This document shows positions 10,309-14,009 of a DNA stretch of 14,009 bases, one piece after another. The stretch spans positions 1 through 14,009 of the forward strand of contig JBEHXF010000046.1 of NCBI GenBank assembly GCA_048498835.1, written 5' to 3'. The notes below the pieces were generated by a model. It was not told the DNA's origin and searched no databases. It saw nothing but the letters and a program-made list of their open reading frames with translations. How positions within the stretch are numbered: position 1 is the first letter of the stretch; each line of letters begins with the position of its first letter. Made by a program: the position numbers and the translations under genes. Source of the DNA: Chlamydiota bacterium (lineage in GTDB: Bacteria; Chlamydiota; Chlamydiia; Chlamydiales; SM23-39).

Positions 10309-10323
10309 GTAATCAGAACTTTT
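10309..10323. repeat. Junction D: degenerate remnant of the cassette-junction repeat
   Basis: GTAATCAGAACTTTT is identical (15/15) to 11536-11550. Confidence 0.6.
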
Positions 10324-10405
10324 TTGGGGAAAAAGCTTCGAGGCAATATACCTTATTTTTCCCATAAATTGCGTCTTGAAATTGCTGCAAAGTGATGAAA
10401 TCTGA

Positions 10406-11383
10406 TCAGAGCTGTTTAAGAGCTATATCGACTACGCCGTTGGGCGCGAACTGCGCGATAAAATACTGGTACATCTGCTCTCGATCTTTTGAGTTTAGTA
10501 GGACCCCTTCGCTATAGACAGCCATGTCTTCTACAATCCGCTCGAATCGATAATAAGCTAGAATTTTTCTATCTACGAAGACATTTCCATAACCTTCATA
10601 AAATAAGGCTTCCTCTCCCGGCTGATTCCAAATATTGCTGACTCCCCCGCCAATAAACATCAAATCTCTTTCTTTAGGCGCTAAAATCGGATCATCCCAA
10701 TCGACAATATAAAAAGCGCCGTGCTTGCTGAAAAGAACATTCCCCCCATGGAAATCTGAATGACAGAGAACATATTCCATCGGCTGATTGCGCAATTCTT
10801 GGCTGAGCTTCTCAGCAGAATTCACAATTTTCTCAATCTGTGTTCTCTGTTCGATGAAGAATTTCTTAAATTTAATTCCGATCTCATCCTGATCTAATAA
10901 ATCATCGATTTGCAAACAGAAGGCCCGCACGAGCTCTCTCCATTTAGGAGAAAAATCTTCGCGACGCATACGACGTTGAATTGTTTCAGGAACTTTTAAA
11001 GAGTGAATTTGTCTCAGTAGTTTACCGAGCTGAATCCACTGCAGCTGAGTGAGAGGCTGAACAAAACCATTTTGCCCTTCGACAAATGGGTAAACAATCA
11101 CGGTAAGATCGCCCATTTTTTGGGTTAAATTCCCTTGCATGGTTTTGACCGGGAAAATGATTTCTCTTATACCTGCTGTTCGTAACAGCTCCAAAATTGC
11201 AAAGTTTACCTCATTGAAAGGTCCATGCTTAACTTTGACAAAATAGGATGTTTGATCGATGCCTTGCACTTTGTAAATGGAGGCATTGGTATCCGCTCCA
11301 CCCTGAAGAATATGAATCGTAGCAACATCGATCTGATAGTCTGTTTTTAAACAATTAAGAATGATTTGGCTAACTTCTGTCAT
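10406..11383 (-). CDS. aph(9): Aminoglycoside phosphotransferase, APH(9)-like (spectinomycin phosphotransferase)
   Basis: Kinase motifs LCHSDFHGGN and IVDWD. Extended blocks QGGADTNA, SPKWRE and LAPKERDLMFIGGGVxNxWN match my recollection of Legionella APH(9)-Ia. Confidence 0.85.
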   Translation of the reverse strand: MTEVSQIILNCLKTDYQIDVATIHILQGGADTNASIYKVQGIDQTSYFVKVKHGPFNEVNFAILELLRTAGIREIIFPVKTMQGNLTQKMGDLTVIVYPFVEGQNGFVQPLTQLQWIQLGKLLRQIHSLKVPETIQRRMRREDFSPKWRELVRAFCLQIDDLLDQDEIGIKFKKFFIEQRTQIEKIVNSAEKLSQELRNQPMEYVLCHSDFHGGNVLFSKHGAFYIVDWDDPILAPKERDLMFIGGGVSNIWNQPGEEALFYEGYGNVFVDRKILAYYRFERIVEDMAVYSEGVLLNSKDREQMYQYFIAQFAPNGVVDIALKQL

Positions 11384-11450
11384 GCGTCTAAGATAGGGTT
11401 TTGCTTTGCAAAAACCAATAGGAATGATCTGAAAGGAAAAGGGGCTTCTG

Positions 11451-11553
11451 CTTCAAGTCCGGACAAAAAACGCACTAGCTATGTCCTCACCGGTAAAAAA
11501 AGCCCTCATTTTCTCTTTTTTGCAGATGGTCGGGCGTAATCAGAACTTTTGAC
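11451..11553. repeat. Junction A: tRNA-3'-end-derived att-like repeat with decayed terminator
   Basis: 11451-11464 matches 12483-12496 (13/14); TCACCGGTA at 11487; 11517-11553 matches 12561-12597 (32/37). Confidence 0.8.
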
Positions 11554-11671
11554 TGGAGAAAACTCAAGAAAAATTTAAAACACTGCTTCGCTTTTTAGAA
11601 AAGCCACAGGAGATCAATTCCATGAATCAGTTAGATAATCAACTCCCTATAACCCCCTCCCTCGCAACTTG

Positions 11672-11710
11672 AAAAAATCGGCGGAATTTTGCTCGAAAAT
11701 ATCCCGCCGA
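11672..11710 (-). terminator. Intrinsic terminator of the 11754-12113 gene
   Basis: Minus strand TCGGCGG...CCGCCGA stem with an inner ATTTT/AAAAT stem, followed by TTTTTT. Confidence 0.7.
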
Positions 11711-11753
11711 CTGAACCTATTAAAAAAGCGCAAAAACGGATTAAGAAAAAAAA

Positions 11754-12113
11754 TTAACGGTGCTTTCCATAAACTCTGCGACAGAATGTGGGTCCCTCGT
11801 TCCTGGAAATAGAATGCTCCATTTGAGCCTTTCTCATCTCATGCAAGACCTGATGGCATTTCACATTAACTCGGTAGCTTTTCAGGTTATCCTCAGGGCT
11901 CCTAATGCCGGGTTCATACTTCCCTAATTCATCGCAATTGTGTGTATTTTTTTGATCGATTAGGGCTTTTGCTACAGCGTCAATACGATCCATTTTATCA
12001 TTCCATTTCTGGCATTCTTCAGTTGTTTGATAAGTGTCTTGGACAACCCCGAGGATTCCGATAAAAACTGCAGCAGCTACTAATTTTGGCTGTATTGACA
12101 TTCTATTCCCCAT
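11754..12113 (-). CDS. Hypothetical protein with N-terminal hydrophobic anchor/signal and 4 Cys
   Basis: ORF with LVAAAVFIGILGVV segment and its own terminator downstream. Confidence 0.7.
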   Translation of the reverse strand: MGNRMSIQPKLVAAAVFIGILGVVQDTYQTTEECQKWNDKMDRIDAVAKALIDQKNTHNCDELGKYEPGIRSPEDNLKSYRVNVKCHQVLHEMRKAQMEHSISRNEGPTFCRRVYGKHR

Positions 12114-12312
12114 ATTTTCAATGTTTTTTCGTTCTTATTATGGTTTAGTTTCATTTTAAATAATACAACTAAAGCAATTGATACTACATTTAATCGTTAT
12201 ATCAAAATTAAAAAAATTCTACCGCTTGATTTTGATGGGTTAGAGGTTGTCTATCAGGGCAGCCGAACTCTCGACAAGCTAATCCTTTAAATTTTTTTTG
12301 AATCCTGGGGAC

Positions 12313-12597
12313 GCCGGTGCGACCAAACGCCTTTGGGCAGGTGGCTCCATCGCTATGCAGCAAAAAACGTTCTCTGGACCTTTTCTCACTATCGCGCTGT
12401 CCCACGCTGATGAGCCGGTTCAACGTGAAGGGAGATGTTTTTTGCTTCAAAAAACCTTCCGAACCGGAAACATCGACTTTCACTTCGAGTCCGGACGCAA
12501 TGCACGCAGGTGCATTGCTTCACCGACAAAAATGAAAAAGCCCCGCTAAAAGCGGGGCCATTTTTGCAGATGGGCGGACGGTTTCAGAACTTTTGAC
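12313..12597. repeat. Junction B: most complete junction module (structured GC-rich region, antisense tRNA arm, terminator, att-like arm)
   Basis: 12518-12567 matches 13893-13942 (47/50, including 34 nt perfect); 12396-12422 resembles 13980-14006; contains TTCGAGTCCGG and a perfect GCAATGCAC/GTGCATTGC hairpin. Confidence 0.85.
12534..12565. terminator. Intrinsic terminator, possibly bidirectional (canonical on the minus strand)
   Basis: AAAAA-GCCCCGCT-AAA-AGCGGGGC-CA-TTTTT. Confidence 0.85.
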
Positions 12598-12903
12598 CTA
12601 CAATCCTTCGGAAGACATGGAAATGGCGCATCCGTCTGAATCCGAAAGAACATAAGGCAATCTTACAAGATCAAATTGATTAATCCTTAAAAACAACCCT
12701 TCTTTAGTGGGGTAAAGCTGGTCGGGTTTTAGCCGAATATCGGAATCGGTCACTTCTTCGGCGCAATACTCTCTATTTTCCAAAATAAGACCGATTAAAT
12801 GCTCATGATTCGTTACATCTACAGACTCTCCAAATACAAAACTTGTAGCACTTAGTGCATTCGATACTAAGAGGCATGCAATAAAAAGCAGGTATTTTCT
12901 CAT
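12598..12903 (-). CDS. Hypothetical secreted protein (101 aa, possibly 3'-truncated)
   Basis: Signal peptide MRKYLLFIACLLVSNALSA; ATGA overlap with the upstream gene; stop codon abuts junction B. Confidence 0.7.
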   Translation of the reverse strand: MRKYLLFIACLLVSNALSATSFVFGESVDVTNHEHLIGLILENREYCAEEVTDSDIRLKPDQLYPTKEGLFLRINQFDLVRLPYVLSDSDGCAISMSSEGL

Positions 12904-13505
12904 GATTTTGTCTCCACTATATTAACAGCCTTCTTGGTTATTTTATCCAATTCAGATATCCGTTCTAACCTTTTATCGTGATCTTCAATCATTGCACTTA
13001 TGGCATCATACATGCATTTTCCTCCCCCGACAATAAAAGAAACCCCAAATTTTCCGGTGAAAGTCGATCTGACTGTCAGGCATAGCACACCGCTGACAAC
13101 AGATCCCACTCCATATAAAAAATCTCTCATCATTTTTCTTTGATGCGGATCAAAATTTGCGCCGTAATCCTGTCTTTGTCCAGAACGATATTCTCCACTA
13201 CAATTTGCTGGTTCAGTCATAAGTCCACAGTCATAGCCATACTTCCGGTACCAGATAAAAAGCTCCTCCAACGTAGATAATGTCGCAGGTGACTCACCAT
13301 TTTGTTGCGCGAGTTGGTAGGCATGTTTAAAAGTATAAAAGGCTTGTCTAGTCTGACCTCTTGATTGTAATTCAAAAGCCTTTTGCATTTCTTCAGCACA
13401 AGCTTTACGCTGCTCTTCAGAAGCTCGTGCATAGGTGGGAGATGAAATGAATAAAAACAAAAAAATCACAGCCAATTTGGCTAGCTTTTTGTAATTTGAC
13501 TTCAT
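12900..13505 (-). CDS. Hypothetical exported protein with helical N-domain and Gly-rich hydrophobic hairpin (201 aa)
   Basis: Signal-peptide-like N-terminus; GVGSVVSGVLCL...GVSFIVGGG region; ATGA overlaps on both sides. Confidence 0.8.
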   Translation of the reverse strand: MKSNYKKLAKLAVIFLFLFISSPTYARASEEQRKACAEEMQKAFELQSRGQTRQAFYTFKHAYQLAQQNGESPATLSTLEELFIWYRKYGYDCGLMTEPANCSGEYRSGQRQDYGANFDPHQRKMMRDFLYGVGSVVSGVLCLTVRSTFTGKFGVSFIVGGGKCMYDAISAMIEDHDKRLERISELDKITKKAVNIVETKS

Positions 13506-13741
13506 AATCCCGAGGTGGTGATAAATTTTGTAATCAAATAAATTACAAGAAAGAGTCCGCCGACACTATAGTTGATGCCTACTCCCAATGATTTAATATC
13601 TCCCTTTTTTTTCCATTCCACTAAGGCCGTAATACCTTTTGGGAGCAAATAGGAAGTCGCCGTGACATACATAGCAACGAATAGCAAGATCTTAATTATA
13701 CTTAAAAAATGAACGTTATCAAACAATTGATCCATAAACAT
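13502..13741 (-). CDS. Small two-TM membrane protein (79 aa)
   Basis: Two hydrophobic segments separated by WKKKGD; AGGA upstream; stop overlaps the next start. Confidence 0.7.
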   Translation of the reverse strand: MFMDQLFDNVHFLSIIKILLFVAMYVTATSYLLPKGITALVEWKKKGDIKSLGVGINYSVGGLFLVIYLITKFITTSGL

Positions 13742-13908
13742 TCCTAGAAAAATTGAGTTTTGACTTTAAAAATATTAAAGATTTTTTGTCCACAGAAAAT
13801 GCAAGCTAATTGATCAAAAAAAAGAAGCAACATGATCAGTTTTTTTGCTTCGTAAAAACAGCAGAGGAAATTTGACCCACACTAGCGGCTTCCTTCACCA
13901 GCAAAAAC

Positions 13909-13940
13909 GAAAAAGCCCCGCTAAAAGCGGGGCCATTTTT
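13909..13940. terminator. Intrinsic terminator identical to 12534-12565
   Basis: GCCCCGCT/AGCGGGGC stem with A- and T-runs on both sides. Confidence 0.85.
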
Positions 13941-13956
13941 GCCGGTGACCGGACTC
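13940..13956 (-). other. tRNA 3'-end fragment (Leu-like), att-site candidate; not an intact tRNA in this window
   Basis: Geometry fits end of T-loop (GAGT), 5-nt T-stem strand (CCGGT), 7-nt acceptor strand (CACCGGC) and discriminator A. GCCGGTG...CACCGGCA acceptors are typical of tRNA-Leu. Confidence 0.6.
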
Positions 13957-14009
13957 CTTTCGGCCGGGCAGCCCCTTGGGCTGTCCCGCGCACGAAAGCC
14001 AGTTCAGTC

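What the first reader, a model, noticed from the sequence alone, without database searches (positions are those of the whole stretch)
10309..14009. Candidate tRNA-anchored array of integrase-less gene cassettes
Seen: four related junctions (D 10309-10323, A 11451-11553, B 12313-12597, C 13893-14009) spaced 1227, 1044 and 1375 nt apart. They enclose co-oriented minus-strand cargo: aph(9); an orphan secreted protein; a three-gene operon. On the minus strand A and B read [arm GTCAAAAGTTCTGA...CCATCT][GCAAAAA][terminator][antisense tRNA arm], and C has a tRNA-like 3' end in place of the arm. The terminator is identical in B and C, decayed in A, and only a 15-mer remains in D. No recombinase ORF is in the window. 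Established: integrative elements target tRNA 3' ends, supply replacement terminators and can accumulate in tandem. Inference: these are minimal non-autonomous ~1-1.4 kb cassettes inserted sequentially by a trans-acting recombinase, giving an integron-like, time-ordered array without attC sites. Decayed remnants of larger islands are the main alternative.
Basis: partly seen in the sequence, partly recalled or inferred. Interest (0 to 1): 0.85.

Follow-up and report, generated by a model that had tools for sequence, protein, structure and literature searches.

The report
Stacked serine-recombinase island remnants behind tRNA-Leu
Behind a leucine tRNA gene of a chlamydia-like bacterium lie three short gene blocks, each closed by the right-hand attachment site of a family of serine-recombinase islands and separated by small hairpin elements that mirror the tRNA's own end; they look like worn-down, stacked islands rather than integron-like cassettes.

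Summary
The four junctions are real. The predicted tRNA-Leu(CAA) ends another contig, which overlaps the window end (22 nt, 1 mismatch). Two things are superimposed. (1) The "arm" is a 33-nt right-hand attachment half-site of a large-serine-recombinase (LSR) island family. The LSR occurs in 70 of 400 phylum genomes, not in this one, and targets tmRNA, tRNA-Tyr, tRNA-Leu(CAA) and tRNA-Ile2/Met. 14 of 20 near-full-length LSR loci end in this arm; dyad symmetry puts the crossover on the last two bases before the discriminator. (2) The "terminator + antisense arm" is a separate ~180-nt hairpin element matched to its own tRNA (5 of 35 RNA genes here). The units lack the left half-site, one holds a dinD pseudogene missing ~230 codons, their cargo is not arm-bounded elsewhere, and cargo orientation in other arrays is mixed (88:101). 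Best reading: an accretion array of decayed LSR islands (CIME-like, as at Dehalococcoides ssrA), movable only together with a new island. Free trans-mobile cassettes are less likely. The scan already noted this LSR array at tmRNA in another genome, and similar hairpin elements in other lineages.

The parts
13957..14009 (-). Right part of a complete tRNA-linked hairpin element (HE0) whose left part follows tRNA-Leu(CAA) on contig C5; 183 nt if the contigs join
   Evidence: intact counterparts are 191 nt at tRNA-Lys (C16) and 178 nt at tmRNA (C29)
13940..13956 (-). Junction C: 17-nt direct repeat of the tRNA-Leu(CAA) 3' end closing HE0 (attB-like site)
13877..13939 (-). Terminator (13915-13933) plus truncated hairpin element HE1, cut inside its first hairpin; left end of unit C-B; no P' half-site
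12598..13741 (-). Three-gene operon (79, 201, 101 aa), no family hit; last stop codon abuts arm B
12566..12600 (-). Junction B: 33-nt P arm (12568-12600, 5' end eroded) and GC crossover dinucleotide (12566-12567); attR of a Leu-type LSR island
12415..12565 (-). Terminator (12540-12558) plus partial hairpin element HE2: antisense acceptor strand, hairpin 12497-12518, antisense T-arm 12484-12496, tail hairpins; left limit approximate
11754..12113 (-). 119-aa ORF with a hydrophobic N-terminus, no family hit
11622..11745 (+). dinD pseudogene: about 14 N-terminal codons joined out of frame to the C-terminal part; about 230 codons missing; starts about 65 nt inside arm A as dinD does inside Leu-type arms of relatives
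   Evidence: (65% over 20 aa, E 1e-4 in a 930-nt region; E 0.38 genome-wide; 72% DNA match over 76 nt)
11522..11556 (-). Junction A: complete 33-nt P arm (11524-11556) and GC dinucleotide; best arm score in the genome
   Evidence: the same tail variant occurs in G084
11452..11521 (-). Decayed terminator plus decayed hairpin element HE3 (antisense T-arm 11452-11464); no longer folds better than shuffles (z 0.58)
10406..11383 (-). APH(9)-like aminoglycoside/aminocyclitol phosphotransferase gene, 325 aa, intact frame
10309..10329 (-). Junction D: eroded Leu-type P arm (2-nt deletion near its start, tail lost)

Best explanation
An accretion array of decayed large-serine-recombinase (LSR) islands at the 3' end of tRNA-Leu(CAA), interleaved with copies of a tRNA-matched hairpin mini-element. 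Shown by comparison: intact islands read tRNA end, left half-site P' (inside the LSR's 3' end), LSR on the opposite strand, often primase-like genes, cargo, then the P arm. The crossover falls on the two bases before the discriminator, so the arm need not match the tRNA upstream of them. Inferred steps: (1) an island integrates and pushes the old terminator and hairpin element behind its P arm (attR = junctions B, A, D); (2) P' is replaced or lost; in this genome a new terminator + hairpin element inserts at the tRNA end, and a deletion from its hairpins removes P', the LSR and the replication genes; (3) the tRNA end followed by a terminator is again a target, and the cycle repeats, oldest unit farthest out. 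The units have no attL, so they should not excise alone. A newly integrated LSR island could excise at any distal attR and carry them along (cis-mobilisation).
For: The LSR has Resolvase, Recombinase and Zn-ribbon domains, is in 70 of 400 phylum genomes, and its frame ends across tmRNA, Tyr, Leu(CAA) and Ile2/Met ends. 14 of 20 near-full-length LSR loci have an arm 6.6-16.4 kb on; truncated LSR + arm units of 0.9-4.9 kb form a decay series, three of them Leu-type. P vs reverse-complemented P' peaks at offset 0 (8.4 of 16 vs 2.1-4.8) over 18 islands; Ile2/Met-targeted islands keep a Tyr-type tail, so the tail belongs to the element. Window arms A and B are in register with Leu-type P. dinD pseudogene in unit B-A. 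Units from different genomes share left or right parts only. The genome's own tmRNA has a parallel array, with a 13-nt P' remnant directly behind the hairpin element's repeat and two eroded arms 2.2 and 4.4 kb apart. The sequence right of a junction is duplicated (50-264 nt) between the anchor and an arm in G083, G020, G129 and the window.
Against: No full-length Leu-clade LSR was seen with its arm on one contig (L251 and L308 are cut short). 6 of 20 LSR loci show no arm, three of them with 18 kb searched. No LSR or P' remnant is in the window, so its units' origin rests on comparison. Only 9 of 242 arm contexts are followed by P'; that is fewer than plain CIME decay would leave, and my explanation (an attL blocks re-insertion until P' is lost) is inference. 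A hairpin element follows only 4 of 239 arms phylum-wide, and 156 fall in no class, so the hairpin 'reset' is not the general route. The arm is strongly conserved and units are small (median 1.5 kb, 59 of 90 at most 2 kb), which also suits active small cassettes. The C5-C46 join has one mismatch and may hide further copies.
Confidence: 0.72

Rival explanations
1. True non-autonomous cassettes: a relaxed LSR supplied in trans excises [terminator...cargo...P arm] between two attR-like junctions and inserts the circle at the tRNA end.
For: Arrays of up to 8 arms with decay away from the anchor; median unit 1.5 kb; P' rare after arms (9 of 242) while terminators are common (70 of 239 vs 0 of 300 random sites); the 2-base crossover needs no tRNA homology; an A-rich start just inside the arm with genes often beginning 65-90 nt away.
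Against: No two units from different genomes matched end to end among the pairs listed for 92 units (pairs at 99.5% or more were not listed, as overlapping fetches); operon homologues have no arm in 15 of 15 loci, and the two aph homologues inspected have none just downstream; internal deletion in unit B-A; LSR decay series.
Confidence: 0.18
2. The hairpin element itself is the mobile unit that captures and moves cargo (folded single-stranded DNA site, attC- or CTX-attP-like), and the arms are passive scars.
For: All three left ends in the window are terminator + hairpin element; the element matches its own tRNA (5 of 35 genes at 17 of 20 or better; in other loci 13 of 116 own vs 1 of 116 cross) and folds strongly (z -10.2 at C5, -5.7 at B).
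Against: Complete hairpin elements carry no cargo and end in a tRNA repeat, not an arm; only 4 of 239 arms are followed by one; they are cut at different points in C, B and A.
Confidence: 0.06
3. The arm is an arm-type site of tyrosine-integrase islands.
For: In G128 about 365-aa tyrosine integrases directly follow arm junctions in 4 places; G000 has one such integrase beside tRNA-Asn.
Against: The same integrase left end also follows the plain tRNA-Tyr end, so it is the displaced older resident; the dyad partner of the arm lies inside the LSR gene end; tblastn with three tyrosine recombinases hit only 4 of 96 loci.
Confidence: 0.04

Closest known systems
Dehalococcoides ssrA genomic islands with the serine integrase DsiB (PMC3146451; section 5 read whole, other passages seen)
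   Same: Tandem islands behind an RNA gene; ~500-540-aa LSR on the reverse strand next to attL; conserved motif just upstream of each repeat; 15 of 31 lack the integration module and are proposed to be cis-mobilisable.
   Different: One target (ssrA) and crossover placed in the T-loop there, versus four RNA targets and crossover at the last two acceptor-stem bases here; six-gene module (DsiA, RecF-, ParB-, Mom-like) not seen in the islands scanned here; units here are mostly 1-3 kb; homology to DsiB was not tested.
CIMEs and microCIMEs in streptococcal accretion arrays (PMC7563491; passages)
   Same: Decayed, recombinase-less elements of 1.2-13 kb with cargo, stacked by accretion, most decayed farthest from the target; gene-free 130-220-bp microCIMEs match the hairpin element in size.
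   Different: CIMEs derive from ICEs/IMEs and keep both att sites; here the left half-site is lost and no conjugation or relaxase gene was seen in the island genes scanned. The passages read describe no antisense copy of the target in microCIMEs.
SCCmec / Ccr recombinases
   Same: LSR with the best NCBIfam hits to CcrB/CcrA; primase-like neighbours; tandem composite arrays (array behaviour recalled).
   Different: Scores of 79 and 58 bits against cut-offs of 900 and 700; single LSR; RNA-gene targets.
Additive flexible genomic islands at tRNA/tmRNA (Alteromonas, PMC4898812; passages)
   Same: Strain-variable cassette stacks marked by tRNA-end repeats.
   Different: Descriptive class; the passages name no recombinase or conserved arm.
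Integron cassette arrays / CALINs (recalled)
   Same: Small cargo units, defence and resistance genes, age gradient, no adjacent recombinase.
   Different: No IntI or attC; serine rather than tyrosine chemistry; mixed cargo orientation; units are mosaic remnants.

Membership tests
LSR island family of Chlamydiota (attR arm) | 33-nt P arm in register with the crossover dinucleotide and a target-class tail | tested here: met
   A complete, B eroded at its 5' end, D remnant
LSR island family of Chlamydiota (attR arm) | LSR gene and P' at the left end | tested here: not met
   No PF00239 or PF07508 hit and no tblastn hit in G000 (96.9% complete); P' score about -28 at C, B, A and C5
CIME | No recombinase or transfer genes, cargo retained | tested here: met
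CIME | Derived by deletion from a larger integrative element | tested here: met
   dinD pseudogene in the window; LSR decay series in relatives; (indirect for units C-B and A-D)
CIME | Both attL and attR retained | tested here: not met
   Only attR-type junctions; no P'
CIME | Parent is an ICE or IME (relaxase / conjugation genes) | tested here: inconclusive
   Pfam on 13 non-LSR genes from three islands gave DUF927, AAA_25, DnaG zinc finger, restriction genes, no relaxase; other island genes were not scanned
CIME | Cis-mobilisation with an adjacent element | not testable with these tools
   Needs reads or experiment; no run was listed
Dehalococcoides ssrA-GI | Reverse-strand LSR adjacent to attL | tested here: met
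   In relatives
Dehalococcoides ssrA-GI | Target ssrA, crossover in the T-loop | tested here: not met
   Window target is tRNA-Leu(CAA); dyad centre is next to the discriminator
Dehalococcoides ssrA-GI | DsiB homology and six-gene module | not tested
   No DsiB sequence was fetched
Integron / CALIN | IntI in the genome or attC sites between cassettes | tested here: inconclusive
   Three tyrosine recombinases only, two XerC/D-like by inspection and one beside tRNA-Asn; no attC model was run; Rfam gave 0 hits
Integron / CALIN | Co-oriented cargo genes | tested here: not met
   Met by the 5 intact window genes, but 88 co-oriented vs 101 opposite over 92 units, and the dinD remnant is opposite
SCCmec Ccr | CcrA/B/C equivalog score | tested here: not met
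MITE / REP repeats | Dispersed regardless of tRNA genes | tested here: not met
   Genome-wide hits lie at RNA-gene ends or contig ends; one arm-like hit inside a coding gene is taken as chance

The most novel reading that the evidence does not exclude
A two-element ratchet. A gene-free hairpin element, re-programmed with an antisense copy of whichever tRNA end it sits behind, inserts at an occupied attL and restores a usable target. An LSR that needs only a two-base match then adds the next cargo block, and may also move arm-bounded blocks singly. This would be an integron-like gene-capture platform built on a serine recombinase and a target-programmed folded DNA, with no described counterpart in my searches. 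In relatives the hairpin element lies between the tRNA and an LSR left end in L207, L012, L103 and L262, and at G000's tmRNA, and its host tRNAs largely overlap the LSR targets seen.
Probability: 0.25. Interest if true: 0.8.

Novelty: new variant of a known kind. Interest (0 to 1): 0.5.

Why it matters
It names the recombinase family, the attachment half-sites and the crossover position behind strain-variable gene stacks in environmental chlamydiae, which are intracellular and hard to manipulate genetically. The 13-nt arm core gives a simple marker for these stacks, whose cargo includes toxin-antitoxin, RhuM, Fic, GNAT, APH and transpeptidase-fold genes. One LSR family using four RNA-gene ends with a shared arm is directly testable and could serve as an integration tool at conserved tRNA/tmRNA ends. 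The hairpin element remains unexplained and is the more surprising part.

Tried and rejected
Rfam scan of 9500-14009: 0 hits at E up to 1. Sequencing runs: none was listed, so no reads were laid. Viral contigs: 1 match, inside a coding frame with a non-matching tail, taken as chance. Tyrosine integrases as helper: followed first, rejected as displaced neighbours; the L098 hit is a 216-aa catalytic fragment. Y1 transposase in G000: none. Idea that the tail is the displaced host tRNA end: rejected, because tails differ from the host tRNA in fixed ways across genera. C5:53137 arm-like hit: inside a 637-aa ORF, rejected. Phage search with the LSR: best 36% identity, unannotated 6-9 kb records; plasmid search: a Neochlamydia replicon at 70%, a Legionella plasmid at 34%. 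The protein-atlas look-up gave no result. Synteny of the window's left part with five congeners: only scattered 65-87% matches on different contigs, so the contig join is not supported by synteny. Literature: nine searches found no description of this chlamydial LSR family or of the hairpin element; the library lacks most subscription papers, and no supplements were read. PMC2996986 and PMC4333871 passages were uninformative.
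Full report
Setting. The window is the whole of contig C46 of a 1.97-Mb, 96.9% complete genome. The host is inferred to be a chlamydia: the arm motif shared with its family is found mostly in records with chlamydial titles (52 of 78 listed loci; 20 unclassified, 6 titled otherwise), and the associated recombinase has a 70% identical relative on a Neochlamydia replicon.

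Observation. The repeats and spacings (1227, 1044, 1375) are as described. ARAGORN finds no tRNA in the window. It does find tRNA-Leu(CAA) 135 nt from the end of C5, with the predicted 3' end. C5 is the only contig whose end overlaps the window's right end (22 nt, one mismatch). The distance from tRNA end to repeat C would be 183 nt, against 191 and 178 nt for intact elements of the same kind at tRNA-Lys and tmRNA. The join is therefore likely, but the mismatch leaves room for hidden copies, no reads were listed, and congener synteny did not help. D's 15-mer occurs only at D and A (0.004 expected).

Component 1, the arm. Arms form arrays of up to 8 (L127). They lie downstream of, and co-oriented with, tmRNA, tRNA-Tyr, tRNA-Leu(CAA) or tRNA-His where an anchor was detected (two loci showed another tRNA upstream), and decay with distance. 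Three loci have arms on both strands. The 10-12 nt after the core mimic the target's 3' end with fixed differences. I first followed tyrosine integrases. The tRNA-Leu loci of 20 relatives then showed serine-recombinase fragments starting at the tRNA end in G064 and G086, each followed by cargo and an arm. PF07508 occurs in 20 of 103 family genomes, not in G000; G000 also has no PF00239 hit and no tblastn trace apart from the tRNA itself. One family of about 500 aa (Resolvase, Recombinase, Zn ribbon) is in 70 of 400 phylum genomes at E 1e-40 or better, one further genome unscored. Its frame lies opposite the RNA gene and ends across the 3' end of tmRNA, tRNA-Tyr, tRNA-Leu(CAA) or a CAT-anticodon tRNA (Ile2/Met, label mine).

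Of 20 loci with a near-full-length LSR, 14 have an arm 6.6-16.4 kb further on. Three of the six misses are cut by contig ends at 5.7-11.6 kb; three (all G380) have none in 18 kb. I fetched 20 of the 30 loci returned in one batch, leaving out those already held, on short contigs or incomplete. Truncated LSRs with an arm 0.9-4.9 kb on (L110, L096, L207, L077, L103, L219) form a decay series. Over 18 islands with both ends, the arm and the reverse complement of the left end match best when centred on the two bases before the discriminator (8.4 of 16, against 2.1-4.8 at offsets of 1-4). That is the two-base crossover expected of serine integrases (recalled), and it explains why only GCA and the A-run are shared between the tRNA and junctions A and B. 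In a tree of 28 LSRs, tmRNA-targeted (100/99) and Leu-targeted (100/100, two rows) enzymes each form one side of a branch; Tyr and Ile2/Met are mixed, and Ile2/Met islands keep a Tyr-type tail. Window arms A and B are in register with Leu-type arms; A's tail variant recurs in G084. So B, A and D are attR sites of Leu-type LSR islands. No full-length Leu-clade LSR was seen together with its arm.

Component 2, the hairpin element. Behind 5 of 35 RNA genes of G000 (Leu-CAA, Leu-TAG, Ser-GCT, Lys, tmRNA) lies an antisense copy of that gene's own acceptor strand and T-arm, 17-19 of 20 matches, split by a 24-26-nt hairpin at about the T-stem/acceptor boundary. In other loci 13 of 116 contexts match their own gene and 1 of 116 a foreign one. 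Complete copies add further hairpins and end in a direct repeat of the tRNA end. The fold is far beyond shuffles at C5, B and C (z -10.2, -5.7, -5.8), not at A (0.58). Rfam has no match. The left ends of all three window units are a terminator plus such an element, cut at different points.

Remnants or cassettes? For remnants: (i) no P' half-site at C, B, A or C5; (ii) unit B-A carries, 65 nt inside arm A and on the plus strand, the start and end of a dinD gene with about 230 codons missing; full dinD genes sit at this position inside Leu-type arms of relatives. The protein match alone is weak (E 1e-4 locally, 0.38 genome-wide) but position and a 72% DNA match agree; (iii) the operon of unit C-B is conserved elsewhere, yet none of 15 homologous loci has an arm or anchor-type tRNA within the 2-6 kb fetched, and aph homologues in L120 and L214 have no arm just downstream, although aph homologues lie in four arm-array or tRNA-Leu loci; (iv) among 92 units, similarities cover left parts, right parts or cargo, not whole units, and ORFs are 88 co-oriented to 101 opposite; (v) of 150 cargo ORFs scanned (of 176 listed), one matched a tyrosine integrase, one an LSR fragment, and a few were IS proteins. 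For cassettes: units are small (median 1.5 kb; some counted twice through overlapping fetches), the arm core is over 90% conserved per position, and only 9 of 242 arm contexts are followed by P', while 70 of 239 are followed by a terminator, 4 by a hairpin element and 156 by nothing I could classify.

Mechanism. Shown by comparison: island layout, half-sites, crossover position, decay series. Inferred: an occupied site (tRNA plus P') is a poor target, so arrays grow mainly where P' has been lost or pushed away; this would explain the scarcity of P'. In this genome the hairpin element seems to do the pushing. At G000's tmRNA the order is tmRNA, terminator and element, repeat, a 13-nt P' remnant, 2.2 kb, an eroded arm, a near-copy of the same terminator and element, 4.4 kb, a second eroded arm. 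The same element-before-LSR order is seen in L207, L012, L103 and L262. Duplications of 50-264 nt to the right of junctions occur in G083, G020, G129 and the window (8 of 166 junction pairs passed the test). For the window the inferred order is: HE2 resident, island inserted (arm B), HE1 with the same terminator inserted in front, deletion from HE1's hairpin into the cargo, HE0 inserted last. Because every arm junction is an attR, a new island could excise with distal units attached. How the hairpin element moves is unknown; its fold pairs the target end with the internal antisense copy, as folded single-strand sites do (recalled), and its host tRNAs overlap the LSR targets seen, but neither point is a test.

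Comparison. The closest described case is the Dehalococcoides ssrA islands: tandem islands, reverse-strand 540-aa serine integrase at attL, a conserved motif upstream of each repeat, 15 of 31 without the integration module (PMC3146451; passages, section 5). The CIME definition and accretion rules come from passages of PMC7563491. The window works like a CIME array but fails the test of keeping both att sites. It is not Ccr and not an integron. Nine literature searches found no account of this chlamydial family or the hairpin element; supplements were not read.

Earlier scan notes. After I had reached the LSR reading, a look-up returned e1-2812450, the same kind of array at tmRNA in another chlamydia-like genome. 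An earlier look-up listed similar tRNA-matched hairpin elements in other lineages. These are unchecked AI notes and are not counted as support.

Verdict. Real feature; new variant of a known kind. The array is best read as decayed LSR islands (0.72). The added value is the four-target LSR family with a mapped site, the Leu(CAA) case, and the apparent interplay with an undescribed hairpin element. Interest 0.5.

Noticed in passing
G000 C29:15894-22651 (minus strand, behind tmRNA): Second array of the same system in this genome: hairpin element, repeat, P' remnant, two eroded arms 2.2 and 4.4 kb apart.
   Followed up: partly
G000 C70:7190-7297 (contig end): 57-nt piece 95% identical to the tail of the hairpin element at junction B, next to an element-type hairpin in opposite orientation; anchor unknown.
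   Followed up: no
window 8357-8930 and 9094-9668: 738-nt tandem duplication of a 173-aa membrane-protein gene (84% over 300 nt), each copy with a palindrome near its 3' end; no Pfam hit.
   Followed up: no
window 1557-2408, 2495-2908, 5935-8361: Glycosyltransferase 92, nucleoside deoxyribosyltransferase-like and inverse-autotransporter-like genes have homologues inside or beside arm arrays of other genomes; the flexible region may extend left of D.
   Followed up: partly
L248:16586-18224, L238, L239, L244, L260, L236 and L261, L262, L264, L265: Two further LSR types end across tRNA 3' ends (Leu-CAA, Leu-TAG, Phe-like and Leu-TAA-like ends; Ser-TGA and Ser-GGA) with different left ends; tRNA-Leu(CAA) is thus shared by two LSR families.
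   Followed up: partly
L202:15586-18872 (G129): Two full tRNA-Tyr copies flank two arms with tmRNA-type tails; 65 nt behind the first tRNA are repeated behind the second arm.
   Followed up: partly
G128 (L189, L191-L199): 18 arms scattered on both strands in an IS-rich genome, with a split tRNA-Tyr; arms could trace rearrangements.
   Followed up: partly
G000 C15:28900-29073: tRNA-Thr(CGT) followed by an 83-nt-period repeat of its 3' half plus flank.
   Followed up: no
G000 C3:21900-23253: 422-aa tyrosine integrase frame directly behind tRNA-Asn; unrelated to the arm system.
   Followed up: partly
L252:9041-10534: An LSR island carries a 497-aa terminase-like ORF (by eye; no Pfam hit) and DUF927, hinting at a phage-satellite lifestyle.
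   Followed up: no
phage records MT837677.1, MT836653.1: Small 6-9 kb unannotated records carry 32-36% identical LSRs.
   Followed up: no
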